Shown here piece after piece: positions 7,058 to 42,607 of a stretch of DNA of 64,000 nt. The notes under the pieces were generated by a model that was not told the DNA's origin, did no database searches, and was given only the letters and a program-made list of their open reading frames with translations. Position 1 is the stretch's first letter, and every line of letters begins with the position of its first letter. This DNA comes from Minisyncoccota bacterium (lineage in GTDB: Bacteria > Patescibacteriota > Minisyncoccia > UBA6257 > 2-01-FULL-56-20), in NCBI GenBank assembly GCA_041664245.1, contig JBAYLC010000002.1, positions 75,593 to 139,592 on the forward strand, read 5' to 3'. A program made the position numbers and the translations under genes.

Positions 7058-7963
7058 ATGTTTACAACAATTTCAAGAATTATAAATTTCGGCTTAAAGA
7101 ATTTTTGGCGAAACGGTTTGCTTTCTACGGCAACGGTGGCGGTTACCGGTATTGCGCTTTTGGTTACCTTAGGACTTATAATGTTTAATTTTGTAACCGG
7201 TGAAGCAATTTCGTCCGTAAAAGATAAGATCGACATAAGTGTTTATTTCAAAACAACAACGGCGGAGGATAGTGTTTTAAGCATCCAAAAGGTGGTGGAG
7301 AGTTTGCCGGAAGTAAAACAAGTGGAATATATAAATAAAGACGAGGCGTTAAAACGATTTAAAGAACAGCACAAAGATGATTCAATCTCTCAGGCGATAA
7401 GTTTGTTAAACGAAAATCCGCTGGAAGCTTCTTTGAATATAAAAGCGAAGAGTCCGGAACTTTACGGCGCGATTGCTCAGAGTTTACAGGCGGACGCGAT
7501 TAAGCAGTATGTTGATAAAATAAGCTACTCGGAGAATAAGGTAATAATTGATAAACTTACAAAAATTATTGACAACGTTAACCAAGGCGGATTAGTGCTG
7601 GTTATTTTCTTGGCGATTGTGTCTGGACTTATAGTCTTCAACACGATCCGGTTGGCAATTTATTCGAATCGCGACGAGATTGGAATAATGCGGGCAGTGG
7701 GAGCTTCTAACATGCTGGTTCGCGGGCCGTTTCTTATTGATGGAATTCTGAACGGAACAATCGCAGCGATTTTAAGTTTGATTTTGGCAATTCCGATTAT
7801 CCACTTTGTCGCGCCGTATCTGAAGGGTTTCATACCTGGGCTTGATATCACTAGTTATTTTTATGGGGGACTTTTTAGATTATTCCTATTACAGCTCCTT
7901 TTTGGAATTGGAATCAGTATTGTCTCCAGCTTCTTAGCGGTTCGAAGATATCTAAAAAATTAG
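7058..7963 (+). CDS. ftsX: Cell division permease FtsX
   Basis: Four-TM FtsX-like topology with a large extracytoplasmic loop, immediately downstream of ftsE. Confidence 0.8.
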   Translation: MFTTISRIINFGLKNFWRNGLLSTATVAVTGIALLVTLGLIMFNFVTGEAISSVKDKIDISVYFKTTTAEDSVLSIQKVVESLPEVKQVEYINKDEALKRFKEQHKDDSISQAISLLNENPLEASLNIKAKSPELYGAIAQSLQADAIKQYVDKISYSENKVIIDKLTKIIDNVNQGGLVLVIFLAIVSGLIVFNTIRLAIYSNRDEIGIMRAVGASNMLVRGPFLIDGILNGTIAAILSLILAIPIIHFVAPYLKGFIPGLDITSYFYGGLFRLFLLQLLFGIGISIVSSFLAVRRYLKN

Positions 7964-11529: not shown

Positions 11530-12276
11530 ATGAATATAATTTATATTCTTTGGCTTAGACAATTAAAGAGATATTTTCGATCAAAAGCGAGAATAATTGG
11601 TTCTTTGGCGCAACCGCTTTTGTTTTTGGTGGCATTGGGATTTGGTTTCGGGCCAATTTTTCAAAAAGCGGGCGGGGGAAATTATATGGAATTTTTGGCG
11701 CCGGGGATTATCTCAATGAGCATACTTTTCACGGCGATATTTGCTGGAATCGAGGTGATTTGGGATAAGCAGTTCGGTTTTTTGAAAGAGACACTGGTGG
11801 CGCCGGTTTCAAGAGTACAAATTATGTTTGGCCGGACTTTAGGCGGAGCTACGGTAGCGACATTGCAAGGTTTGATTGTTTTTATTCTTTCGGTTTTGAT
11901 CGGATTTGAACCGATCAGCCTGGTAGCTGTTCCTTTGTCAATTTTATTTATGTTCATGATTGCTTTGATATTTACGGCTTTAGGAACGGCTATCGCCTCA
12001 GCGCTTGATGATATGCAAGGCTTTCAACTGATTATGAATTTTTTGGTGATGCCGCTCTTCTTTCTTTCAGGAGCATTATTTCCTTTAAGCGGTTTGCCGC
12101 CAATAATAAAAACAGTGGCAAGTATTGATCCTTTATCTTACGGGGTTGATTCGTTGAGAGGCGCTCTGACGGGGGTATATCATTTCGGCTTCTTTTTGGA
12201 TTTTGCAATTCTTGGCGCGCTGATTGTTATTTTTATCTGGCTTGGAAGCTATATGTTTCGGCGGATTCAGATTTAA
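11530..12276 (+). CDS. ABC-2 type transporter permease
   Basis: Six-TM hydrophobic protein translationally coupled to the upstream ABC ATPase. Confidence 0.7.
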   Translation: MNIIYILWLRQLKRYFRSKARIIGSLAQPLLFLVALGFGFGPIFQKAGGGNYMEFLAPGIISMSILFTAIFAGIEVIWDKQFGFLKETLVAPVSRVQIMFGRTLGGATVATLQGLIVFILSVLIGFEPISLVAVPLSILFMFMIALIFTALGTAIASALDDMQGFQLIMNFLVMPLFFLSGALFPLSGLPPIIKTVASIDPLSYGVDSLRGALTGVYHFGFFLDFAILGALIVIFIWLGSYMFRRIQI

Positions 12277-12292
12277 CGTATTATTCTTAAAT

Positions 12293-12868
12293 ATGACCCA
12301 GACCACGGATGAAGAGTTAATTAAAAAATATTTGTCGGGAGATGAACCGGCATTTCGGGAACTTACTGAACGTTATCTGAAGCCGATTTATAATTTTGTT
12401 TACCGTTATACAAAGAGCGGCGATTCGGCCGAAGATATCACACAAGATGTTTTTGTTAATGTCTGGAAGAGCATTAAAAAGTTTGACCAAGATAAAAAAT
12501 TTAAGACGTGGATATTTACGATTGCCAAAAACACTTCTCTAAATTGGGTTAAAAAAAAGAAACCACTTTTATTTTCGGAATTATCCGGTTCGGATAAGAA
12601 AAATGAGAAAGAAAGCTATTCATTTGAGGATTCTCTTCGGGATCCGGCGCCGCTGCCAGATGAGGTTTTTGCCAACGCTGATTTGAAAAATAAATTGGAG
12701 TTGGCGATGTCAAGTTTGGATAATAATTATCGAGCAGTGCTTTTCCTCCACTATAACGACCATTTTACCTTTCAGGAGATTTCGGAGATGTTAGGGAAAT
12801 CAATCAATACGATAAAAAGCCAGCATCGGCGGGGAATTGTGTTGCTCAAAAAAGTTTTAACTGTCTAA
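12293..12868 (+). CDS. RNA polymerase sigma-70 factor, ECF subfamily
   Basis: Region 2 (YLKPIYNFVYRY...AEDITQDVFVNVW) and region 4 (LFLHYNDHFTFQEISEMLGKSINTIKSQHRRG). The likely true start is MTQTT at 12293, inside the longer listed ORF 12224. Confidence 0.8.
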   Translation: MTQTTDEELIKKYLSGDEPAFRELTERYLKPIYNFVYRYTKSGDSAEDITQDVFVNVWKSIKKFDQDKKFKTWIFTIAKNTSLNWVKKKKPLLFSELSGSDKKNEKESYSFEDSLRDPAPLPDEVFANADLKNKLELAMSSLDNNYRAVLFLHYNDHFTFQEISEMLGKSINTIKSQHRRGIVLLKKVLTV

Positions 12869-29588: not shown

Positions 29589-29596
29589 CTGAATAA

Positions 29597-29697
29597 TTTA
29601 TCATGAGTGGCGGTGAGAGTTCTGGCTCGCGGATCCGCCCGGCAACCCTCCAAAATGGAAAGGTGCCCCATCCAGCCCGCAGGGGAAAGATAAAGGT
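29597..29697 (+). ncRNA. SAM-I (S-box) riboswitch aptamer upstream of metK
   Basis: P1 TTATCATGAG pairs with GAAAGATAAAG. Conserved blocks GGCGG-GAGAG (K-turn region), CCGCCCGGCAACC, and GGTGCC..ATCCAGC..GCAG match the SAM-I consensus. A U-run follows before the metK start. Confidence 0.65.
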
Positions 29698-29772
29698 CGA
29701 AACGCTTTTCTTTCGGGATAGGCGTATTTTTTTTATTCAGCTGTGAAAAAATACAAAAACATATTTAAAAAC

Positions 29773-30720
29773 ATGAACACAAAAATAAAAACAGCGGAAT
29801 CTGTTTCACCAAAACATCCTGATAAAATTTGCGACCGGATTGCGGACGCGCTTCTTGACGCTTATCTCGCGGGCGACCCGAATAGCCGGGTAGCGGTTGA
29901 GGTGATGGGCGGGCACGGCAAGATTTCAATTTCGGGGGAAGTAACGAGTAATTCAGAAGTTGATGTTCCGAAAATAATAAAAGAGGTAACGGGCGGTGAT
30001 TACGAAATACATATTTATCTTGTAAAGCAAAGCACGTTCATTGCCCAGGGAGTGGATACGGGCGGAGCGGGCGATCAGGGCATAATGATCGGTTACGCCG
30101 AGCGAGGGGCGGAGAATTTTATGCCACTCGAATATGAACTGGCGAGAAAACTTTGCCAGGGCATATACGAAAAATATCCGTTTGATGGAAAGACGCAGGT
30201 GACTATTGAAGGCGATAAAGTGAAAACGGTGGTGGTGAGTTTTCAAAACACTAAAACAGAAGAGTTGGAAAAATTGGCGGGCGAACTTATTATTGCCGAC
30301 GAATATCTGATCAATCCGGCGGGGGAATGGACGTCAGGCGGTTTTGATGCGGATTCCGGTTTGTCTGGCCGCAAAATTGTCGTTGATAACTATGGGCCGG
30401 AAACTGGTGTTGGCGGCGGATCTTTTTCGGGCAAGGATTACACAAAAGTAGACCGGTCCGGCGCTTATATGGCGAGGCGAATTGCCGTTGATTATTTAAA
30501 GGAGAATTCGAACGTGAATTCGGTTCGAGTGAAGCTAGCTTACGCTATCGGAAAAAAAGATCCAGTGATGGCAGTCGTGGAACTAGACGGACAAGAAGCG
30601 CCAATCGAGGGTTACGATTTAACACCGAAAGGGATTTATAAGTTTTTAGAGTTAGATAAGGTGAAATGGGCGGAAACTGCCGAGTGGGGACACTTTGGCC
30701 GGAAGTTTACGTGGGGCTAA
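29773..30720 (+). CDS. metK: S-adenosylmethionine synthetase (shortened MetK)
   Basis: ESVSPKHPDKICDRIADALLDAY (GHPDK motif) and the C-terminal GGGSFSGKDYTKVDRSGAY motif. The listed ORF starts at GTG 29743; the ATG at 29773 is preferred. Confidence 0.75.
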   Translation: MNTKIKTAESVSPKHPDKICDRIADALLDAYLAGDPNSRVAVEVMGGHGKISISGEVTSNSEVDVPKIIKEVTGGDYEIHIYLVKQSTFIAQGVDTGGAGDQGIMIGYAERGAENFMPLEYELARKLCQGIYEKYPFDGKTQVTIEGDKVKTVVVSFQNTKTEELEKLAGELIIADEYLINPAGEWTSGGFDADSGLSGRKIVVDNYGPETGVGGGSFSGKDYTKVDRSGAYMARRIAVDYLKENSNVNSVRVKLAYAIGKKDPVMAVVELDGQEAPIEGYDLTPKGIYKFLELDKVKWAETAEWGHFGRKFTWG

Positions 30721-35319: not shown

Positions 35320-35682
35320 CTAGAAGAGATCGAAGCCGACTACCAGGAAAAGGCACAGGAAGATTTCCGCGAAGAACAAAACAGCAAAACGGAGATATGC
35401 TCCCGGGGCAGCATGGAGGGATCCAGCTGAGTAAAATTGCCATCTTTCTTCGGGTAGCATTATTTTGCTTGTTTTCCAGATTTTTCCCATAAGGAAATCA
35501 AGAGGGAAGTTGAGTAGCTGCCAGGCTAGTATCGGCATTCCAATTATGGTGCCCCACTTTACGGCGATCGCCAGAGCTTCGCTAAACTTGAAGCCTGGGA
35601 AGAGAGCGATAGTAAGCGTACTTGCCAGAATTAGGAATGCCCAGCCAACGGCGATTTTCAAGTTAAGTGTTAGGTCTTTCAA
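35320..35682 (-). CDS. Small membrane protein
   Basis: Three hydrophobic helices. Function unknown. Confidence 0.4.
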   Translation of the reverse strand: MKDLTLNLKIAVGWAFLILASTLTIALFPGFKFSEALAIAVKWGTIIGMPILAWQLLNFPLDFLMGKIWKTSKIMLPEERWQFYSAGSLHAAPGAYLRFAVLFFAEIFLCLFLVVGFDLF

Positions 35683-35821: not shown

Positions 35822-36508
35822 TTAGGATTTGAAGTTAACGATAAAATCAAAGCTGCATGCGCAAGGGCTTTTGTGGCAGACGTGGCAGTTGTCGGCAAAA
35901 TGGATTGAAAGTTCTTCGGCTAGGTCAACCGACATAGAGTTGAAGACGCCGATTAGGCAAGAAATAAGGTCGGCAATTTCAAGAGTGACATTTTTGAAGC
36001 TGGCGTCATCGCGGGTGCTGCGATAGGCGAGGATGGCTTCGGAGACTTCGCCCAGCTCTTCGGCGAGGTGGATGCCGGCGTGTTCCAGAGTTCGGGTCTC
36101 CGGCGGGTAGATTTCTCGAAACATTTTTTGAAAATCTGAGAAAGTTTTTGGTCTTTTGGCGTTGTCGATCGGGACGCGCTTCCGACTTTCCGGTCTTTTC
36201 TGTTTGCACTGGCAGGGACAGGAGGCGCAGTAGGAGCAAACATAGGGGAATCTTTGCCAGAGTTCTTCTTCGATATCAATATGAAGTTGATTTAAAAGAG
36301 ACATCAGCCAACTTGTGGAAATTATTAAATTGAATTTAGTTTTTTCCTGATTTTCTTTCCGAATTCCTTTTAGGCCGCGCATTAAAAATCGTTCAACATT
36401 AGAGAGCATATCCCAAGCGCTGAATTGGCGGTCATCGGGCAGGCCGTATACTTCTTGAACGAACGACTGATATTTTTTGATGGTAACGTCTTTTGAAACG
36501 GAGGCCAT
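35822..36508 (-). CDS. MazG-like nucleotide pyrophosphohydrolase-domain protein with Cys-rich clusters
   Basis: C-terminal HLAEELGEVSEAILAY...LEIADLISCLIG resembles the MazG EExxE/D helices. Clusters CSYCASCPCQC and CHVCHKSPCAC are present. Start taken at MASVS (36508) because the upstream 23 codons of the listed ORF overlap the conserved promoter element. Confidence 0.5.
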   Translation of the reverse strand: MASVSKDVTIKKYQSFVQEVYGLPDDRQFSAWDMLSNVERFLMRGLKGIRKENQEKTKFNLIISTSWLMSLLNQLHIDIEEELWQRFPYVCSYCASCPCQCKQKRPESRKRVPIDNAKRPKTFSDFQKMFREIYPPETRTLEHAGIHLAEELGEVSEAILAYRSTRDDASFKNVTLEIADLISCLIGVFNSMSVDLAEELSIHFADNCHVCHKSPCACSFDFIVNFKS

Positions 36509-36528
36509 TTTGAGGTGATTATATAGAA

Positions 36529-36575
36529 ATATTATAGGAGTTTCTTTGGGGTTGGGGTAGGGGTGGAAATCACCC
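36529..36575 (-). promoter_or_regulatory. Copy A of a conserved ~50-nt promoter-associated element (minus-strand reading ...CCCCTAcCCCAACCCCAAAGAAAcTCCTATAAT), with its -10 lying 22 nt upstream of the MazG-like start
   Basis: Near-identical to the copies at 38531..38583 and 39472..39523. The TATAAT is oriented toward the minus-strand gene. Confidence 0.6.
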
Positions 36576-36598
36576 ATTTTGGTTGCGGTTCTGGGGAC

Positions 36599-36745
36599 TT
36601 GACAGAATTTATAGGTATGCTATACTACCCCCAGTTGGTCCTGAGGTGTGTAGCTGTCTAACGATCTCAGGGAGCCTTTATTTAACAGTAAAGACAGCAA
36701 AGAATGAGCGGCGATCAGCAAGTCTGACCGCCGCATTTTTATTTA
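36599..36745 (+). ncRNA. Candidate small RNA: TTGACA-16-(TGc)TATACT promoter, ~110-nt transcript, intrinsic terminator (GCGGCG...CGCCGC followed by a U-run)
   Basis: Promoter at 36599-36626. Internal helices CCUGAG/CUCAGG and GCUGUCU/AGACAGC. Terminator stem 36708-36734 with TTTTT at 36736-36740. No plausible CDS (the 68-aa ORF spans the promoter and terminator). Confidence 0.45.
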
Positions 36746-36763
36746 AAATAATTTTATTTTTAC

Positions 36764-37501
36764 TTAATTCGATTTTACGCGGAAGGTGATGAGATAGTTT
36801 TCTGGTTTTGGTGTTGAGTTTGCCACTCGCGAAGGTTTGATGCTTTCGATGGAAATCTTAAATGAATCAAAGGCGACCGGGGCGGCGTTTGAAGAGATAT
36901 CCCTTGTCTCTTTGTCGGTATCGCTTTGGAGGGTGACGTTAGTAGTTACCCATCCGGCTTGGATACATTGAACGTCTGTTGGGCAGCGGCTATCCTGGGA
37001 TATTCTATTGAGTGTTATGCGGACGCCGTTTATGAAAACGCTTTTTCCAATGCCGATTTCTCCCAAAGTTGGATCGCCGGCATCTCCTGATAGTTTTTCA
37101 AAACGATTCACCGAAAGGGTGATGCCTTCGGTGAAGGTTCCGAAGACGCGGATTTTTTGTCCGACAAGCTGCCCAATAGTGCTACTGGACTCGAAAACAA
37201 GAGGCAACACATAGGAGACCTCGCCGCCGTTTTCGGGTGAGCTAAAAATAAGAGAAAAGTTTTCGGCATTCTGCCGCAGTGTTCCAGTGAACGAAGGTTG
37301 ATTGGGACAAGCCGCGAACTTACATTTAGATCCGGTTCTACTCACGTATGAACCGTCGGGACAAAGCAACGCTTCTTGAGTGCAAGCGATTCCTTGAGAA
37401 TCGGCGGGAGTTCGATTTAAGAATTTAGATAGACCGTACGCGCCACCGCCGATTATTACGATTATGAGAACGGCGAGAATTATTTTTTTATTGGTTTGCA
37501 T
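36764..37501 (-). CDS. Secreted Cys-containing hypothetical protein
   Basis: Signal/TM KKIILAVLIIVIIGGGAYG followed by two CxxxxC-like pairs. Last gene of the minus-strand operon. Confidence 0.4.
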   Translation of the reverse strand: MQTNKKIILAVLIIVIIGGGAYGLSKFLNRTPADSQGIACTQEALLCPDGSYVSRTGSKCKFAACPNQPSFTGTLRQNAENFSLIFSSPENGGEVSYVLPLVFESSSTIGQLVGQKIRVFGTFTEGITLSVNRFEKLSGDAGDPTLGEIGIGKSVFINGVRITLNRISQDSRCPTDVQCIQAGWVTTNVTLQSDTDKETRDISSNAAPVAFDSFKISIESIKPSRVANSTPKPENYLITFRVKSN

Positions 37502-37535
37502 ATGAAAACTATATCAACAAAATAGAAAGTTTGGT

Positions 37536-38063
37536 TTAGTTATATTTTTTTATAATCCCCAACGCTGTTAGGTTCGGCTTATCGGTAACAATTTCTTCCG
37601 CTTCGGGTATGGTTAGCCACTTTGTGTCGTAAAATTCTTTTGGGTCAACGTTGAAGTTAGATCCGTCGGTATTCATAAGATACCAAATATCGAAGTGAGT
37701 TTTACACGACCGAATTCTATTTTCTATCAGTGTAATAGTGAAAAGAAAAGGCATGGGAGTTTCTTTGAAGAAGTTTTCCACGCCGAGTTCTTCGTTTATT
37801 TCGCGATTTAACGTTTCTAAAATTCCTTCGCCTTTGTCGATGTGCCCGCCGGGCGAAACCCAAAGATTGGCTTTTCTGTGATGGACAATAAAAACTTTTT
37901 TATTTTCGACATTGTGAGGAAAAAAATAAGTGCAGAAATGGGACTGCGGATTTTCGTCTCGGGTAAAAGCGCCTTTCCCTAATCTTTTTAGATAATTTTC
38001 GTAGGTGCTTTCGCTGTCACAAATTGATTTATCTAGAATTTGTGAAATTTGGTCGTATAACAT
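37536..38063 (-). CDS. NUDIX hydrolase
   Basis: Nudix box GGHIDKGEGILETLNREINEELGVE. Confidence 0.75.
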   Translation of the reverse strand: MLYDQISQILDKSICDSESTYENYLKRLGKGAFTRDENPQSHFCTYFFPHNVENKKVFIVHHRKANLWVSPGGHIDKGEGILETLNREINEELGVENFFKETPMPFLFTITLIENRIRSCKTHFDIWYLMNTDGSNFNVDPKEFYDTKWLTIPEAEEIVTDKPNLTALGIIKKYN

Positions 38064-38067
38064 ATTA

Positions 38068-38511
38068 CTAGGATATTTTTCTTAAATCTCCGTTTAGGAA
38101 TTTTGGTTGCATGCCAAGGATTTCTTCTTTGAAATTAAGGTTGTCAGAAATCGGATTAAGAATGAAAATTGGTTTTTTGTAGTGAAAACCAATCGCGGCT
38201 TCAATAAGCGTGTTGCCGCCGATATATCTGGGAACGCCATTTTTTTCGTAATTCAAAATTAGGACAGCATCGCCTTTGATAATTTTCTGAAGATGATTTT
38301 TAATAAGCCAGCTTTTGCGGTTGTAATTTGCTGCGTCTTTGAACCAAGTTTTATAAGTTTCTATTCGGAAGTCGCCGCTCTTTTTCATTACGTTAGCGGT
38401 GTACGGTATTTTCACAGCAAAACCCAGAGTTTTTAGTTCTTTTTCGACATCAAGCGCTTGTTTGAAAAACGAGGCGCTTGAACAAATGGTGATTGATTTT
38501 TTAGGGGTCAT
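38068..38511 (-). CDS. Nucleoside 2-deoxyribosyltransferase-like / DNPH1-like (SLOG fold) protein
   Basis: Rossmann-like ITICSSASF...AVLILN...IGGNTLIEAAIGFHYKKPIFIL resembles the NDT/Rcl family G-x-x-E-x-G-x-A-x-x-x-KP motif. Lies 4 nt upstream of the Nudix gene. Confidence 0.5.
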   Translation of the reverse strand: MTPKKSITICSSASFFKQALDVEKELKTLGFAVKIPYTANVMKKSGDFRIETYKTWFKDAANYNRKSWLIKNHLQKIIKGDAVLILNYEKNGVPRYIGGNTLIEAAIGFHYKKPIFILNPISDNLNFKEEILGMQPKFLNGDLRKIS

Positions 38512-38530
38512 AATATTAGTTAGCTCATAA

Positions 38531-38583
38531 ATATTATAAGGGTTTCTTTGAGGTTGGAATAGGGGAAGTGAATGACCCGTCTC
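38531..38583 (-). promoter_or_regulatory. Copy B of the conserved promoter-associated element. Its -10 TATAAT lies 21 nt upstream of the start of the NDT-like/Nudix operon.
   Basis: Plus-strand ATATTATAAGGGTTTCTTTGAGGTTGGAATAGGGGAAGTGAATGACCCGTCTC. Immediately follows the terminator of gene 38662..39090. Confidence 0.6.
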
Positions 38584-38661
38584 TAGGTCGGGCTAAAAAA
38601 GAAAAGGCGCCGTGTCCAGCTTGTGAGCTAGGCGTGCGCCATTTGATTAAATCTTTTTCTG

Positions 38662-39090
38662 TTAAGTAGCCGAGGCACATTTTCCGGTTAGGTGTAGAAC
38701 TGAACGAATATGCTCATCCATGATGTCGCTCTTCGGATCCCGGAAGATTACAAACCGGGACGACCGATACAAGATGACATAGAGAAGCCCTATCCAGTCA
38801 GCAAAGCGGAAATGGTCTACGCGCTCTGCCCAGGTTTCGCCTTCCAGGGGGTCGATTCGACTCACCTTTTTGTTGATCGGGTTTTCATACTGAGTGACGA
38901 TCCAGACCTCTGCACCGTCCGCAGCGCTAGATTTCTGTTGAAGGAAAGCCTTTAGGTCTGCCATATTTTGGCTGACTTTGATTTGTCCGGTGAGAGCGGG
39001 ATACCATTCCGATCGAACTGCCCATAACCATGGAAAATCGGAAAGGATAGCTCGTGTTTTGTGATCGCCCCACAACTGATTTCTAAACAT
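38662..39090 (-). CDS. Hypothetical protein in GC-rich DNA
   Basis: 142-aa ORF with a strong SD (GAGGAGG) and a rho-independent-like terminator downstream. GC content above the local average. Confidence 0.4.
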   Translation of the reverse strand: MFRNQLWGDHKTRAILSDFPWLWAVRSEWYPALTGQIKVSQNMADLKAFLQQKSSAADGAEVWIVTQYENPINKKVSRIDPLEGETWAERVDHFRFADWIGLLYVILYRSSRFVIFRDPKSDIMDEHIRSVLHLTGKCASAT

Positions 39091-39471
39091 ACTAACCTCC
39101 TGAGGAATTCCTCCTCTTTGAGTTATCCGACTCTGGATTTAAACAACTAAAAAGATGTTATCATAAATTATTAAATTTGTCTAGCTGGCTTCCTCGAGCC
39201 CATGTTTTTTCAGTGTTATCCCAAATAATAAATTTTGATAATCGACCTTCTCCGGCCCACTTCCTCCTTTGCTAAAGCTTCGGATGGGCACAGCGATACT
39301 GCGCTGACTCTATAGCCCCGCTACATCGGGACACGTGATTTTTATATCATAGTCCCTCACATTCCCTCGACACGGCTCGGGACAAGCCGTTCGGGACAGT
39401 TGATTTTGCGAACGCTTCGCGCGGCAAAATCTAACTGCTGTGTTCTTCGGTCTGGTACTAAAACCTCGCAA

Positions 39472-39523
39472 GTATTATAAGGATTTCTTTGGGGTCGGAA
39501 TAGGGGAGGGAACGACCCGTCTC
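39472..39523 (-). promoter_or_regulatory. Copy C of the conserved promoter-associated element, ~380 nt upstream of gene 38662..39090
   Basis: Plus-strand GTATTATAAGGATTTCTTTGGGGTCGGAATAGGGGAGGGAACGACCCGTCTC, in the same orientation as copies A and B. Confidence 0.55.
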
Positions 39524-39585
39524 GGTCGCACCGTCAAATGAGACAAATGAGACATATTCGAGAGGCATTTAGGTTTCTGTTGAAT

Positions 39586-39614
39586 TTGACAAATAAGAGA
39601 TTTTCGTTTATAAT
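39586..39614 (+). promoter_or_regulatory. Consensus sigma70 promoter TTGACA-17-TATAAT for gene 39663..40643
   Basis: TTGACA at 39586-39591 and TATAAT at 39609-39614, followed by AGGAG 8 nt before the ATG. Confidence 0.6.
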
Positions 39615-39662
39615 CTCTCTTAGTAAACTTTACATTGTTTTATAACGAAAGGAGAAATAGGT

Positions 39663-40643
39663 ATGAGCGAAAAAGCGAAGATTCACTTCCGGAACAGGTC
39701 GTTTATGGCTCGAGTGACTGATAAGGGAGACGAACCGATTCAGTGCACTCCCGTGGTGTACGACGAAGCGTACAACTTCGGTGTCGGTGTGTTTTATGAA
39801 GATGGCAAGGGGCAGGTTTGGGGCATGGTAACGCCTCGAAATCTTATCGCTGCCTGGCGGGCTACGGAGATACTTCGTCATCTCGATGTTATCGAACCCG
39901 GAACACTCTGTTGCGCCTACTACACTGGTATGCGTGATCCACACGAGTCTGACATGAAATCTCGTATCGAGCCGACAATTGCGAAGATCGGACGAGCGAC
40001 GTATGACGCAATTATGTCGATGCCCGTGCCCGAGCAAATTGTGAGGGCAATTCTGGACAACCAGAAAGACGATTTTGCGCCGTCTCTCTATCCTATCACC
40101 GAGGAGGTGCGAGCCGGAACGATTCAATGGCGACAGGAATTCGCTGACGTTGGGATTAGTCATCCCGATGCGATTGATGCTGCCGAAAGAGCTCGAGAAG
40201 AGACGATCGTCAAGTTTGAACGGCTACTCACTTCTTATGCTGGCTCGCGGAATCTTTCGCGTGAGTGCATGGGGATGGGTTATGTGGAAAGTGCTCTGTT
40301 GGCGCTCGTTGATAAGAGCGCGAATCGGACACATCCCGACCACGTGCTGGTTGCACTGGCAGGTGTCGTGAGCGAACTCGCCGTCTCTGAATTTTCAATG
40401 GTTATGGTGCCCTTTGGTCTGCATGGTCATGACGCAGTTAGGACACACATGGACAGAACAAAGGAAGAGGCGATTAAACACTCCGCCGGATGGCTCATTT
40501 CCAGTTCGAAGCCTTCGGGCTTAGCGCGATTTGCTTTCTGGAGGCGTCAACCAGCGTCATTCACCCCGGGAAGCGCAGCAGAACTTCTTCGTAGGTTATT
40601 GGACGAGTATTTTCCTCCGAAGTCGGAAGTGGCTGCTACGTAG
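39663..40643 (+). CDS. Hypothetical protein in GC-rich DNA
   Basis: 326-aa ORF with a consensus promoter, good RBS and a strong terminator. GC well above the window average. No domain recognised. Confidence 0.45.
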   Translation: MSEKAKIHFRNRSFMARVTDKGDEPIQCTPVVYDEAYNFGVGVFYEDGKGQVWGMVTPRNLIAAWRATEILRHLDVIEPGTLCCAYYTGMRDPHESDMKSRIEPTIAKIGRATYDAIMSMPVPEQIVRAILDNQKDDFAPSLYPITEEVRAGTIQWRQEFADVGISHPDAIDAAERAREETIVKFERLLTSYAGSRNLSRECMGMGYVESALLALVDKSANRTHPDHVLVALAGVVSELAVSEFSMVMVPFGLHGHDAVRTHMDRTKEEAIKHSAGWLISSSKPSGLARFAFWRRQPASFTPGSAAELLRRLLDEYFPPKSEVAAT

Positions 40644-40674
40644 TACAACAAAGGTTGAACGGAATAGTTGCATG

Positions 40675-40712
40675 AGGGCGTCTTGAAAGAGACGCTCTTT
40701 TTTTCTTTTTTG
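40675..40712 (+). terminator. Intrinsic terminator (AGGGCGTCT-tgaaag-AGACGCTCT plus a T-run)
   Basis: Directly downstream of the stop at 40643. Confidence 0.7.
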
Positions 40713-40906
40713 AATACGGCGCTCAGCCGGTATGACGTGGATGGTACGGAGTGCCCTCGCTCTTCAGTTATCGACGCTCCTCGAGCGGGATAACCTATCA
40801 CGAGGTGGCTGACCAAGTCGAGCTTGAACCCCAACGGATCAAACCCAGCAAGGCGATTTTGGGTAGTTTCATTTTACCATTTTGACGCGTCTCGAGCACT
40901 CGGATC

Positions 40907-41623
40907 TTAGTCTATTTTGAAGACCGAATGATCATGTCCGTTAATTGAGGCGAAAAGATGACCAAATCTCGGTGCAAAGAAGTCTTTTAGTTTCTCCATC
41001 TCGCCATTGTTTCTGTAAGCCATATCTGCATACTCAATTTTACTTTTTTCCGTAAGTTCTTCAATTTTTCCGTCAAGTTTTTTAATATCCAGGCTTAATT
41101 CTTGAGCATTTTTTTTAATCAACGATAATGCATTTGCTCTGGTTATATCAAAATTTCTCGCTGTTCTTTCATGCGTGTGTTTGTCCCTAAACTTAGTTGC
41201 TTCCTTGAGGCCACTCATCACATTATTTTTAAGATGATCTAATAAACGATTAGCATCATTTGGATTCGCAAGGTTATATCTAGATAAATCATTTTTAAGA
41301 GAACCGATTATTCCCATTATTCTTTCCTTTAAAATATAAATGTCTTGCATATAAGAATACCAATGATACTCAACTGCTTCCGATTTTGAAATTGCCTCAG
41401 ATGTAGGATAAAATTCCAAAAAATACAAGGGGTACCTCCCTATTTTCCTTAAAACAGAATCCAACTCAAGTATTTTTTCGAAATAGAATTTTGCTCTTTT
41501 TTCCTGCCAGCTTTTAGGTTTCATGTTACCTAGAAGAACATCTAATGGGAAGTTATTTGGAAAATAGTTCGTTAATATTTGAAATTTTGTTATTTCTGGC
41601 ATGGGCAAAGAATTATGTCTCAT
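40907..41623 (-). CDS. Hypothetical protein (possible HEPN-like Rx4H motif)
   Basis: 238-aa helical protein containing FRDKHTHERTAR (R-x4-H). No other recognisable domain. Confidence 0.3.
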   Translation of the reverse strand: MRHNSLPMPEITKFQILTNYFPNNFPLDVLLGNMKPKSWQEKRAKFYFEKILELDSVLRKIGRYPLYFLEFYPTSEAISKSEAVEYHWYSYMQDIYILKERIMGIIGSLKNDLSRYNLANPNDANRLLDHLKNNVMSGLKEATKFRDKHTHERTARNFDITRANALSLIKKNAQELSLDIKKLDGKIEELTEKSKIEYADMAYRNNGEMEKLKDFFAPRFGHLFASINGHDHSVFKID

Positions 41624-41646
41624 CGACGTTCCTCGGACGCAAAAAT

Positions 41647-42531
41647 TTAAGATGGCCTATCATTAAACTGCTCATCAAATTGTTGATTGAGCGTTTTATC
41701 GGTTCGTATATCGAATGTCGGTTCGTTATTAACAATGAGTGGACGTCCCAAAATCGCGATAAAATTCTCTAAGTCCACGCCGGAAGAAAGTTTTAGTAAT
41801 TTTTTATATTCAGTTTGAATATCTGCTACATCTTGCATTGAAGATTCAGATATAGCTCTAACTTGATTATAGTCTGGTCCGACTAAATATTTTCTCAGCA
41901 CGACATTGTTAAAGCCCTCGCCTGGGGCTGTTATGTAGATTGTATTTATAATGCTATTTTTTCTGAAGGTTACCACTGTCAAATTCGTTGGATCAATTTT
42001 CTTATTGGATAGGAAAAAATCCAATGAATTATTATCGAAATCTAGATAACCACTTTCATTAGCTGCGAAAAAGAAAGATTGATAATTGCCTGGATTCCCG
42101 TGGTAGTATTCTTCGTGATAATAAAAATCGTGCGCCCCAAGATAGGCGAATATGTTATCGGGAGTACCAATGTCTGAAAATTTTGTTTTCCCTAAGATAA
42201 TTGTTTTAGCTCCTGATTCAAATTTTGTTTCATCGCTAGGATTTTTAGAGTCAGCGTAATAAAGATCTTGAAGGATAGTAAAAGACGGCGTGAAATTTTT
42301 GTTCCTAACAGTGATTCCATACGCTAAAACTTTATCCGCGCTGTCGGTTAATGCTTGGACGTAATAATATTTGGAACCGAATATATATTCTTTGACTGGT
42401 GGAGGCGGGATTGGGTGCGGGGAAAATCTATCATACAAGGTATAAACGCCGACCACCGCACCTACCAAAACTGCAAGACCTCCTACGATACCCCAAAATA
42501 TATTCCACGCCCTTAAGATTTTCTTCCACAT
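41647..42531 (-). CDS. Membrane-anchored hypothetical protein
   Basis: N-terminal TM WNIFWGIVGGLAVLVGAVVGV, then a Pro-rich segment and a ~250-aa extracytoplasmic domain rich in Y/F/N. Confidence 0.35.
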   Translation of the reverse strand: MWKKILRAWNIFWGIVGGLAVLVGAVVGVYTLYDRFSPHPIPPPPVKEYIFGSKYYYVQALTDSADKVLAYGITVRNKNFTPSFTILQDLYYADSKNPSDETKFESGAKTIILGKTKFSDIGTPDNIFAYLGAHDFYYHEEYYHGNPGNYQSFFFAANESGYLDFDNNSLDFFLSNKKIDPTNLTVVTFRKNSIINTIYITAPGEGFNNVVLRKYLVGPDYNQVRAISESSMQDVADIQTEYKKLLKLSSGVDLENFIAILGRPLIVNNEPTFDIRTDKTLNQQFDEQFNDRPS

Positions 42532-42607
42532 GATAGTTGCCTTTGTTTATGCTCTTCGGACTCCGAATTTATCTCAAGGTGGCTGCCGAGGTTTTATTTG
42601 ACCGCTT

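What the first reader, a model, noticed from the sequence alone, without database searches (positions are those of the whole stretch)
35822..39523. Three copies of a ~50-nt conserved promoter element driving nucleotide house-cleaning genes: a candidate dedicated regulon
Three near-identical elements share the consensus, written on the minus strand, GGGTC..TTC....CCCCTATTCCAACCCCAAAGAAAcCCTTATAAT. The plus-strand copies are at 36529-36575, 38531-38583 and 39472-39523.

All three point at minus-strand genes:
- Copy A: the TATAAT sits 22 nt upstream of the MazG-like start.
- Copy B: the TATAAT sits 21 nt upstream of the operon of the nucleoside-deoxyribosyltransferase/DNPH1-like gene, the Nudix gene and the secreted Cys protein.
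- Copy C: ~380 nt upstream of an unknown GC-rich gene.

The 35 nt upstream of the -10 are far more conserved than an ordinary -35 region. That suggests either an operator for a dedicated transcription factor or recognition by an alternative sigma factor (an ECF sigma is encoded at 12293).

The regulated proteins are all predicted to hydrolyse or trim nucleotides (MazG, Nudix, an NDT/DNPH1-like N-glycosidase). This combination is typical of sanitising non-canonical nucleotides, or of defensive depletion or modification of the nucleotide pool during phage infection. A co-regulated MazG + NDT-like + Nudix set sharing a bespoke promoter is, as far as I know, not a described system.
Basis: partly seen in the sequence, partly recalled or inferred. 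Interest (0 to 1): 0.75.

Follow-up and report, generated by a model that had tools for sequence, protein, structure and literature searches.

The report
Reused promoter cassette in a Paceibacterota island
Three copies of a ~60-bp promoter-like sequence sit in front of neighbouring genes for cleaning up nucleotides in an ultra-small (CPR) bacterium; the repeat is real and under selection, but it looks like a local case of promoter reuse, which is already known, and not a new genome-wide regulon or defence system.

Summary
Three same-strand copies of a 60-67 nt element lie at 36527-36586, 38529-38591 and 39470-39529. None is expected by chance, and there are no other copies in about 73 kb scanned. 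Each ends in a perfect TATAAT that faces minus-strand genes. It lies 22 nt before the MazG-like start and 21 nt before the NDT-like/Nudix/245-aa operon.

The third copy faces about 280 nt of non-coding DNA. The 142-aa gene beyond that has its own promoter, conserved in relatives.

The protein calls are supported: Nudix by Pfam, the MazG-like domain by PDB and PHROG profile hits, and the NDT/DNPH1 fold by AlphaFold plus Foldseek.

A syntenic sister genome (L030) is the key evidence. There, a 218-bp unit made of a small-RNA gene plus the element sits directly before Nudix, with TATAAT, 6 nt, then ATG. In the window the same unit sits before MazG. The orthologous element is 91% identical, against 72% at four-fold sites, so it is constrained.

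The element was not found in more distant relatives. Exact-pattern scans of genome, metagenome and viral collections gave only chance hits.

Best reading: a lineage-specific, reused sigma-A-type promoter cassette inside a variable island. It fits the "putative mobile promoter" description. An ECF sigma, a defence system or a wide regulon is not supported.

The parts
36527..36586 (-). Element copy A (A-type: ...AACCAAAATGGGTGATTTCCACCCCTACCCCAACCCCAAAGAAACTCCTATAATATTT). Its TATAAT is at 36536-36531, 22 nt upstream of the MazG-like ATG.
   Evidence: The ortholog in L030 at 7585-7647 is identical at 53 of 58 positions.
38529..38591 (-). Element copy B (B/C-type, with the 5' extension CGACC..GAGACGGGTC). 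Its TATAAT is at 38538-38533, 21 nt upstream of the NDT-like ATG.
39470..39529 (-). Element copy C. Its TATAAT is at 39479-39474. It faces about 280 nt of non-coding DNA, and it lies back to back with the canonical promoter of the plus-strand 326-aa gene at 39586-39614.
35822..36508 (-). MazG-like gene (228 aa): a Cys-rich N-terminal half followed by a MazG-type all-alpha NTP pyrophosphohydrolase domain at about residues 111-204. It lies downstream of copy A.
   Evidence: PHROG MazG-like 7e-5; Pfam PRA-PH 0.007, below its cut-off; a family profile hits PDB 1vmg at 2e-4 and 5ie9 at 1e-3; homologues are 228 aa and some sources name them MazG-like
38068..38511 (-). NDT/DNPH1-fold gene (147 aa), the first gene downstream of copy B.
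   Evidence: AlphaFold2 pLDDT 92. The Foldseek top hits are nucleoside 2-deoxyribosyltransferases, YtoQ, DNPH1 and BcmB. 12 of 32 homologues match Pfam Nuc_deoxyrib_tr weakly.
37536..38063 (-). Nudix hydrolase gene (175 aa). Its start is 4 nt after the NDT-like stop codon.
   Evidence: Pfam NUDIX 2.2e-13
36764..37501 (-). 245-aa membrane-anchored, Cys-rich protein of unknown function, the last gene of the copy-B unit.
   Evidence: no family hit; conserved next to Nudix and MazG in L030
38595..38640 (-). Intrinsic terminator of the 142-aa gene (GGCGC...GCGCC followed by TTTTCTTTTTT), immediately upstream of copy B.
   Evidence: read from the sequence
36599..36745 (+). Candidate small-RNA gene transcribed away from copy A: promoter TTGACA-16-TATACT, an RNA of about 105 nt, and a terminator at 36708-36734. 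Together with copy A it forms the 218-bp unit that sits at a different place in L030.
   Evidence: 103 of 104 nt identical to L030; no Rfam family
39190..39466 (-). GC-rich, hairpin-rich non-coding stretch downstream of copy C, carrying three GTCCCGA motifs.
38662..39183 (-). 142-aa ORFan gene (38662-39090) with its own promoter (TAGACA-17-TAACAT, 39183-39155) and a conserved 5'UTR.

Best explanation
The element is a lineage-specific promoter cassette of about 60-65 bp that has been copied or moved within one variable genomic island of a Candidatus Paceibacterota genome.

Its 3' end is a perfect housekeeping-sigma -10 (TATAAT). RNA polymerase would start about 7 nt downstream of it. That would give short leaders without a Shine-Dalgarno sequence in the window (A for the MazG-like gene; B for the NDT-like, Nudix and 245-aa genes) and a leaderless Nudix mRNA in the sister genome.

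The 35-55 bp upstream of the -10 have no TTGACA-type -35 but are conserved. They probably take the place of the -35, either through a direct but unusual polymerase contact or, more likely, as the binding site of a still unidentified DNA-binding protein. That protein would co-regulate the two or three units.

Shown: the repeat, its orientation and geometry, purifying selection on it, its relocation between genomes, and the identities of the proteins.

Inferred: that the TATAAT is used as the -10, that a factor binds upstream of it, and that the units are co-regulated.
For: - Three copies, none expected by chance, all intergenic and on the same strand.
- The TATAATAYTT block is invariant in all four known copies and forms the 3' boundary of the homology.
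- Distances from the -10 to the ATG of 22, 21 and (in L030) 6 nt fit this genome, where -10-like hexamers commonly lie 5-40 nt from start codons and only 6 of 50 genes have a Shine-Dalgarno sequence.
- Copy B directly follows an intrinsic terminator.
- In L030 the element plus the small-RNA gene sits directly before Nudix-245aa-MazG, whereas in the window it sits before MazG. An element copy therefore ends up right at a gene start in both arrangements.
- The orthologous element is identical at 53 of 58 positions, against 72% identity at 308 four-fold sites (P = 3.5e-4). The 15-nt linker next to it has diverged freely.
- The copies share no RNA structure and show no covariation, and there is no Rfam match.
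- The sequence meets the operational definition of a putative mobile promoter: at least 50 nt at 80% identity or more, upstream of non-homologous genes (PMC3488235).
Against: - No transcription start data exist.
- There is no -35 match of 4/6 or better at 16-18 bp spacing. This is only weak evidence, because more than half of the -10 candidates in this genome also lack one.
- Copy C has no gene within 280 nt, and the next gene has its own promoter.
- No regulator has been identified.
- Only two genomes carry the element, so comparative power is low, and the L030 arrangement rests on a single 18.5 kb assembly contig.
- Copy A's distal end lies 13 nt from the -35 of a divergent small-RNA promoter. 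Part of its conservation could therefore serve that promoter instead.
Confidence: 0.6

Rival explanations
1. The repeat is primarily a recombination or mobility substrate: the end or footprint of a small non-autonomous mobile unit, such as the 218-bp small-RNA-plus-element cassette. Alternatively it is a hotspot for homologous recombination that shuffles gene blocks in the island. In either case the TATAAT is incidental or only secondarily useful.
For: - The 218-bp unit sits at different positions in the window and in L030.
- In L030 the small-RNA gene is flanked by a degenerate B/C-type copy (it shares the 11-mer CCCCTATTCCA) and an intact A-type copy. That is the pattern expected if a circle recombined into a pre-existing copy.
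- The copies lie in or at the edge of a segment that differs completely between the two genomes.
Against: - There are no terminal inverted repeats and no target-site duplications.
- No integrase or transposase domain is among the called genes within about 6 kb.
- Only 3 copies occur in 73 kb.
- The homology always ends exactly at the -10 block next to a gene start.
- The copy is under purifying selection even where it is not duplicated.
Confidence: 0.15
2. The conserved upstream half acts toward the plus strand. It could be an operator or upstream region for the divergent promoters (the small RNA at 36599 and the 326-aa gene at 39586). In copies B and C it could also be an ECF-type promoter (GGAATA-N16/17-CGTCTC) read by the ECF sigma encoded at 12224-12868.
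For: - Copy A's distal end is 13 nt from the -35 of a canonical plus-strand promoter, and copy C's is 57 nt from one.
- B and C carry GGAAT-N16/17-CGTC on the plus strand.
- An ECF-type sigma (Sigma70_r2 plus r4_2) is encoded in the window.
- The small RNA and element A stay linked in both genomes.
Against: - The ECF-like motif is missing from A and from the L030 copy (GGGGTA...CATTT).
- It is not enriched in the window: 4 hits against 2 expected, and 16 of 100 shuffles do as well. None lies upstream of the sigma gene.
- Plus-strand transcription from B would run antisense into a conserved gene, with no plus-strand gene to serve.
- The most invariant block is the minus-strand TATAATAYTT, which would have no role in this model.
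Confidence: 0.1
3. The copies are neutral leftovers of recent local duplications and have no function of their own.
For: The copies are clustered within 3 kb and differ by 16-25%, which is similar to the neutral divergence between the two genomes.
Against: - The orthologous copies are far more alike (91%) than four-fold sites (72%) or the adjacent linker.
- The flanks of the paralogous copies have lost all similarity, while a 37-nt core keeps 30 invariant positions.
- The homology always stops at the -10 block beside a start codon.
Confidence: 0.05
4. The element is a transcribed cis-regulatory RNA, that is, a leader or riboswitch-like signal in the 5' UTR.
For: It lies directly 5' of coding regions, and read-through from upstream genes would include it.
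Against: - The consensus fold of the four copies has only 4 invariant pairs, -3 kcal/mol, and no covariation.
- There is no Rfam match even at E <= 5-10.
- B is preceded by a terminator.
- In L030 the ATG is only 6 nt after the TATAAT.
Confidence: 0.03

Closest known systems
Putative mobile promoters / promoter reuse (Matus-Garcia, Nijveen and van Passel, Nucleic Acids Res 2012; PMC3488235, PMC3575422)
   Same: Homologous stretches of 50-100 nt at 80% identity or more sit in the first ~100-150 nt upstream of non-homologous genes within one genome. Families are small (68% have two members), and copy number and position differ between close relatives. All of this is seen here.
   Different: This family lies in a CPR genome that the 2012 survey did not cover. 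All its copies are confined to one 3-kb stretch of a variable island. One copy travels together with a small-RNA gene, and the downstream genes share a theme of nucleotide sanitation.
Sigma-70/sigma-A promoters dependent on an activator or lacking a -35
   Same: A perfect TATAAT at a start-codon distance typical for the genome, no usable -35 hexamer, and conserved DNA in the -35 to -65 zone, where class I and class II activators or repressors bind.
   Different: No regulator and no clear dyad or direct-repeat operator can be named, and no TG extension precedes the -10. Conservation of the whole spacer is not typical of ordinary sigma-70 promoters.
House-cleaning nucleotide hydrolase clusters (MazG, Nudix/MutT, NDT/DNPH1-like, Ham1/ITPase, HD 5'-nucleotidases)
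   Same: The window encodes MazG-like, Nudix and NDT-fold proteins side by side. Relatives place the same NDT-like family next to Nudix, HD, HhH-GPD, NTPase_I-T and Ham1 genes.
   Different: The clustering is general in these genomes and does not depend on the element. The substrates are unknown, and the 245-aa and 142-aa proteins have no recognisable link to nucleotides.
REP/REPIN, MITE and integron attC repeats
   Same: They are short intergenic repeats in the same size range.
   Different: This element is not palindromic, has no terminal inverted repeats, has very few copies, is always oriented toward a gene start, sits 5' and not 3' of genes, and has no recombinase nearby.

Membership tests
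Sigma-70/sigma-A type promoter | A -10 hexamer close to TATAAT | tested here: met
   A perfect TATAAT is present in all three window copies and in the L030 copy.
Sigma-70/sigma-A type promoter | A -35 hexamer close to TTGACA, 16-18 bp upstream of the -10 | tested here: not met
   The consensus scan lists no promoter at the three sites. The best -35 scores are 3/6. The region reads TATTCC or TACCCC.
Sigma-70/sigma-A type promoter | Oriented toward a gene and at a plausible distance from it | tested here: met
   22 nt for A, 21 nt for B and 6 nt in L030. Copy C is the exception, with 280 nt of non-coding DNA.
Sigma-70/sigma-A type promoter | Transcription start 5-9 nt downstream of the -10 | not testable with these tools
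   This needs dRNA-seq, 5'-RACE or metatranscriptome data.
Putative mobile promoter family (PMC3488235) | At least 50 nt at 80% identity or more between upstream regions | tested here: met
   A-B is 80% over 50 nt and B-C is 84% over 67 nt. A-C is 75% over 60 nt, which is below the threshold.
Putative mobile promoter family (PMC3488235) | The downstream coding sequences are not homologous | tested here: met
   The downstream genes are MazG-like, NDT-fold and (non-coding DNA, then the 142-aa ORFan). hhalign of the 142-aa protein against the NDT family gives a probability of 0.2%.
Putative mobile promoter family (PMC3488235) | Position differs between related genomes | tested here: met
   The 218-bp unit lies before Nudix in L030 and before MazG in the window.
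Dispersed repeat (REP/REPIN/MITE) | Many copies across the genome, with palindromic or terminal-inverted-repeat structure, and orientation independent of genes | tested here: not met
   There are 3 copies in about 73 kb, all within 3 kb. No inverted repeat was reported. All copies face gene starts. The rest of the 272 kb contig and of the genome could not be scanned.
Integron attC / cassette array | An imperfect palindromic site at the 3' end of each cassette, plus an integrase | tested here: not met
   The element lies 5' of the genes, has no palindrome, and no integrase domain is among the neighbouring genes.
ECF-sigma promoter | GGAAC-like -35 and CGT-like -10 at 16-17 bp spacing, present in every copy and upstream of the sigma gene | tested here: not met
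   The minus strand carries a TATAAT instead. The plus-strand motif GGAAT-N16/17-CGTC occurs only in B and C, is not enriched, and is absent near the sigma gene.
Known RNA family (Rfam) | A covariance-model match, or a conserved structure with covariation | tested here: not met
   No matches. The consensus fold has 4 pairs and no covariation.
Nudix hydrolase | A Pfam NUDIX domain above the gathering score | tested here: met
   50.8 bits against a cut-off of 21.1, E = 2.2e-13.
MazG-like NTP pyrophosphohydrolase | Sequence match to MazG-type all-alpha domains, with conserved acidic residues | tested here: met
   PHROG MazG-like 7e-5. The family profile hits PDB 1vmg at 2e-4 and 5ie9 at 1.3e-3. 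E150, E151, E154, E157, E177 and D180 are invariant in the family. Pfam PRA-PH is below its cut-off (17.2 against 21.3 bits).
Nucleoside 2-deoxyribosyltransferase / DNPH1 superfamily | An NDT-like Rossmannoid fold | tested here: met
   The model has pLDDT 92. The Foldseek top hits are 2a0k, 6evs, 8pqs, 6qai, YtoQ 8of6, DNPH1 8rpt and BcmB 4jen, with probability about 1.0 and TM 0.5-0.57.
Nucleoside 2-deoxyribosyltransferase / DNPH1 superfamily | Family-level sequence membership (Pfam Nuc_deoxyrib_tr) and the catalytic Glu in the right place | tested here: inconclusive
   The window protein has no Pfam hit, and 12 of 32 homologues hit only weakly (best 7.6e-5). An invariant Glu (E104, in YIGGNxLxE) exists, but its equivalence to the NDT nucleophile was not checked residue by residue.
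Known anti-phage defence system (PADLOC) | Matches to the system's proteins | tested here: not met
   The only hit is the Nudix protein against a candidate model, PDC-S07, at 1.6e-7. The other nine proteins give nothing.

The most novel reading that the evidence does not exclude
The 218-bp unit, made of a near-invariant ~105-nt small-RNA gene fused back to back with the promoter element, is a new kind of portable regulatory cassette in CPR bacteria. It would move between gene starts and bring both a promoter and a trans-acting RNA. Alternatively, or in addition, the conserved -13 to -65 region is the operator of a dedicated, still unknown regulator that ties nucleotide-sanitising enzymes into one lineage-specific circuit.
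Probability: 0.15. Interest if true: 0.6.

Novelty: new member of a known kind. Interest (0 to 1): 0.3.

Why it matters
Almost nothing is known from experiments about transcription signals in Patescibacteria. This locus provides a constrained, reusable promoter with a fixed -10 and an unusual conserved upstream region. It also shows a natural relocation of that promoter between two sister genomes, together with an unknown small RNA. That gives a concrete sequence to test in metatranscriptomes or reporter assays, and a small example of how reduced genomes rewire operons. It does not reveal a new enzyme system. The MazG, Nudix and NDT-like genes are ordinary house-cleaning or salvage genes that cluster in many related genomes without this element.

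Tried and rejected
**Searches for more copies**
- Exact-pattern scans for the element in GTDB species genomes gave 0 hits and then 7 chance hits in unrelated phyla.
- The scan of JGI metagenome contigs gave 11 chance hits, none followed by a TATAAT.
- The scan of viral contigs gave 1 chance hit inside a coding region.
- The collections evidently do not hold this genome, so a genome-wide copy count could not be made.
- One of two attempts to extend the window failed because the end protein is not on record.

**Relatives**
- Relatives found through the NDT-like protein at 75-80% identity (L017-L022) and through the MazG-like protein at about 66% identity (L035-L038) have neither synteny, nor the element, nor the small RNA.

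**Rejected readings**
- Coding sequence. In copy A the ORF can be extended through the element, but the 228-aa length of about 120 homologues, stop codons in copy B, and a frame shift in L030 rule this out.
- tRNA fragment or att site. ARAGORN finds only tRNA-Thr and tRNA-Gln elsewhere.
- Structured RNA and known RNA families.
- attC, REP or MITE.
- The ECF promoter reading.
- The 142-aa protein as a diverged NDT paralogue. Pairwise BLAST gave 1e-4, but hhalign against the family gave a probability of 0.2%.

**Other**
- Small-RNA target prediction with duplexfold gave uninformative results.
- The 326-aa neighbour belongs to an uncharacterised family with no Pfam or PDB match, so it could not be tested as a candidate regulator.

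Full report
**1. The observation**

The window contains one family of three direct repeats at 36527-36586 (A), 38529-38588 (B) and 39470-39529 (C). B extends to 38591 when it is aligned with C.

- A degenerate 26-nt core pattern, allowing three mismatches, hits exactly these three sites. The expectation from 100 shuffles is 0.00.
- A profile built from the copies finds them at E = 1e-18 to 1e-23. Nothing else scores below E = 3 in the 64 kb window or in 9 kb beyond its 3' end.
- Gapped identities are 80% over 50 nt for A-B, 75% over 60 nt for A-C and 84% over 67 nt for B-C.
- Written on the minus strand, the shared core is CCCCTAYYCCRACCYCAAAGAAAYYCYTATAATAYTT, preceded by GGGTSRTTY. B and C also share CGACC..GAGAC further upstream.

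**2. Organism and genes**

The window comes from a 272-kb metagenomic contig that NCBI assigns to a Candidatus Paceibacterota bacterium. Four independent assemblies carry the same arrangement.

Downstream of copy A is a 228-aa protein.
- Its start at 36508 is fixed by about 120 homologues, nearly all 228 aa long.
- Its C-terminal half is a MazG-type domain. It matches a PHROG MazG-like family at 7e-5. A family profile hits PDB 1vmg at 2e-4 and 5ie9 at 1.3e-3. The acidic residues are invariant across the family.
- Pfam PRA-PH is below its cut-off.

Downstream of copy B are three genes.
- The first is a 147-aa protein. The window protein has no Pfam hit. Its AlphaFold model (pLDDT 92) matches nucleoside 2-deoxyribosyltransferases, YtoQ, DNPH1 and the CMP N-glycosidase BcmB. 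In addition, 12 of 32 homologues hit Pfam Nuc_deoxyrib_tr weakly.
- The second is a clear Nudix hydrolase (2.2e-13). Its start is 4 nt after the stop of the first gene.
- The third is a membrane-anchored, Cys-rich 245-aa protein with no recognisable family.

**3. Copy C is different**

- The 142-aa ORF, 383 nt downstream of C, is a real but rare gene. It has two homologues at 65% identity and the same length.
- In those homologues the roughly 115 nt before the ATG are about 93% identical to the window. [quoted passage not shown] - The 142-aa gene therefore has its own promoter.
- C faces about 280 nt of GC-rich, hairpin-rich DNA (fold z = -2.6). That DNA has no ORF, no Rfam match and no pseudogene signal.
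- What C drives is unknown. It could be a non-coding RNA, or it could be a second, distal promoter for the 142-aa gene.

**4. The key comparison**

A homologue of the MazG-like protein with 95% identity led to L030, an 18.5-kb contig from a sister genome that is syntenic with the window. A blastn comparison shows four things.

- The flanks are collinear at 86-91% identity.
- Window 38055-42582 carries element C, the non-coding stretch, the 142-aa gene, element B, the NDT-like gene and three further genes. In L030 this segment is replaced by 1.8 kb of unrelated genes.
- A 218-bp unit (window 36523-36740) consists of a plus-strand small-RNA gene and element A back to back. In L030 it lies directly upstream of Nudix. 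In the window it lies between the 245-aa gene and MazG.
- In L030 the geometry is TATAAT, 6 nt, ATG, which is the classic spacing for a leaderless mRNA.

L030 also has a decayed copy just beyond the small-RNA terminator (CCCCTATTCCACCCAAACTGAATATAAAAA). It shares the 11-mer CCCCTATTCCA with copy B. The small-RNA gene in L030 is therefore flanked by two element copies in direct orientation.

**5. Selection**

- Four-fold degenerate sites in four flanking genes are 72% identical between the two genomes (223 of 308).
- The orthologous element is identical at 53 of 58 positions (P = 3.5e-4).
- The small-RNA body is identical at 103 of 104 positions (P = 1e-13).
- The 15-nt linker between the element and the small-RNA promoter, and the first nucleotides after the small-RNA -10, have diverged freely.
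- Both the element and the small RNA are therefore functional.

**6. What the element is**

It is not an RNA structure. The four copies share only a 4-bp GGGT/ACCC pairing, with no covariation. It is not coding, not a tRNA fragment, and not palindromic. No recombinase lies nearby.

The homology always ends at TATAATAYTT next to a start codon. Copy B follows an intrinsic terminator. The distance from the -10 to the ATG fits this genome:
- -10-like hexamers commonly sit 5-40 nt before start codons;
- only 6 of 50 genes have a Shine-Dalgarno sequence, so the lack of one at A and B is normal here.

The most economical reading is a housekeeping-sigma promoter whose upstream 35-55 bp are conserved in place of a TTGACA-type -35. 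The consensus scan finds no promoter at the three sites. This is only weak evidence, because more than half of the -10 candidates in this genome also lack a good -35.

The conserved upstream part probably binds a protein, which would co-regulate the units. This step is inference. No regulator could be named.

An ECF sigma is unlikely, because a perfect TATAAT is not an ECF -10. A plus-strand GGAAT-N16/17-CGTC motif exists in B and C only, and it is not enriched.

**7. Regulon or local reuse?**

- All copies lie within 3 kb of one variable island, and none occurs elsewhere in about 73 kb.
- Relatives with 75-80% identical NDT-like proteins or about 66% identical MazG-like proteins have neither the element nor the small RNA.
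- Exact-pattern scans of GTDB genomes, JGI metagenome contigs and viral contigs gave only chance hits. These collections do not hold this genome.
- In both genomes that carry it, the element serves the same Nudix / 245-aa / MazG cluster, plus the NDT-like gene in the window. A link to these genes is therefore real, but small.
- In relatives, the NDT-like family sits beside Nudix, HD, HhH-GPD, NTPase_I-T, Ham1 and pyrophosphatase genes without the element. The gene clustering is a general CPR trait.
- PADLOC gives only one weak Nudix hit.

**8. Comparison with what is known**

The element fits the operational description of putative mobile promoters. These are 50-100 nt at 80% identity or more, upstream of non-homologous genes, mostly in families of two, and with position and number varying between close relatives (PMC3488235; PMC3575422). 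It is a new, lineage-specific member of that known kind.

Three points go beyond the usual case:
- the tight linkage to a near-invariant unknown small RNA;
- the relocation of the two as one unit;
- the location in a segment that looks horizontally acquired. That segment holds four of the six genes with a Shine-Dalgarno sequence and has higher GC.

**9. Verdict**

The best explanation is a reused, constrained promoter cassette, with confidence about 0.6. The main rivals are:
- a recombination or mobility substrate (0.15);
- a divergent or plus-strand regulatory role, including the ECF reading (0.10);
- neutral duplication (0.05);
- an RNA leader (0.03).

Interest is modest at 0.3. This is a tidy, testable promoter case in an organism group with almost no transcription data, but it is not a new system.

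Noticed in passing
window 36599-36745 (+): Candidate small-RNA gene: a canonical promoter (TTGACA-16-TATACT), an RNA of about 105 nt with three hairpins (z = -3.0), and a strong terminator at 36708-36734. It is 103/104 identical in the sister genome L030, where neutral sites are 72% identical, and it matches no Rfam family. A loop segment GCUGUCU is complementary to a downstream AGACAGC, which could form a pseudoknot or an alternative stem.
   Followed up: partly
window 39091-39183 (-); L031 500-614; L033 665-777: The promoter and the ~60-nt 5'UTR of the 142-aa ORFan gene are about 93% identical across three genomes whose proteins are only 65% identical. The leader has a perfect palindrome, GAGGAATTCCTC, that overlaps the Shine-Dalgarno sequence. 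This suggests an operator or a translational control hairpin.
   Followed up: partly
window 39190-39466 (-): A 280-nt GC-rich non-coding stretch below element C. It has several stable hairpins and three GTCCCGA motifs, with no ORF, no Rfam hit and no pseudogene signal. It may be an unknown non-coding RNA.
   Followed up: partly
window 38055-42582: This segment is absent from the sister genome L030, which has 1.8 kb of other genes in its place. It has higher GC and holds 4 of the only 6 genes with a Shine-Dalgarno sequence among 50 checked, so it is probably horizontally acquired. It encodes an ETEC_3214-domain protein (41647-42531), a 238-aa protein with an R-x4-H motif (40907-41623), and a 326-aa protein.
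   Followed up: partly
window 39663-40643 (+): The 326-aa protein transcribed away from element C belongs to an uncharacterised family. The family has about 240 representative clusters with E <= 0.001 but no Pfam or PDB sequence match. R66 and E148 are invariant.
   Followed up: partly
whole window: The genome is poor in Shine-Dalgarno sequences (6 of 50 genes). Many -10-like hexamers lie within 5-40 nt of start codons, which suggests widespread short-leader or leaderless mRNAs.
   Followed up: partly
window 29595-29696 (+): A SAM-I riboswitch (51 bits against a gathering score of 44.4) lies upstream of the gene at 29743-30720. The syntenic gene in L030 is annotated as S-adenosylmethionine synthetase.
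   Followed up: no
window 35320-35682 (-): A 120-aa predicted membrane ORF between the MazG-like gene and the methyltransferase gene is missing from L030. This is another small indel in the same locus.
   Followed up: no
L019 9571-10447; L021 9569-10444: Related Patescibacteria carry two tandem NDT-fold paralogues of 142 and 147-148 aa. In L019 a Nudix gene follows them. The window has only one of the pair.
   Followed up: partly
L030 7357-7366 and 6480-6500: L030 has a further TATAATATTT block 40 nt upstream of its decayed element copy. It also has a stretch, GACCGAGACCGGTTCG, that resembles the 5' extension of copies B and C (GACCGAGACGGGTCG). These may be more element debris in the variable segment.
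   Followed up: no
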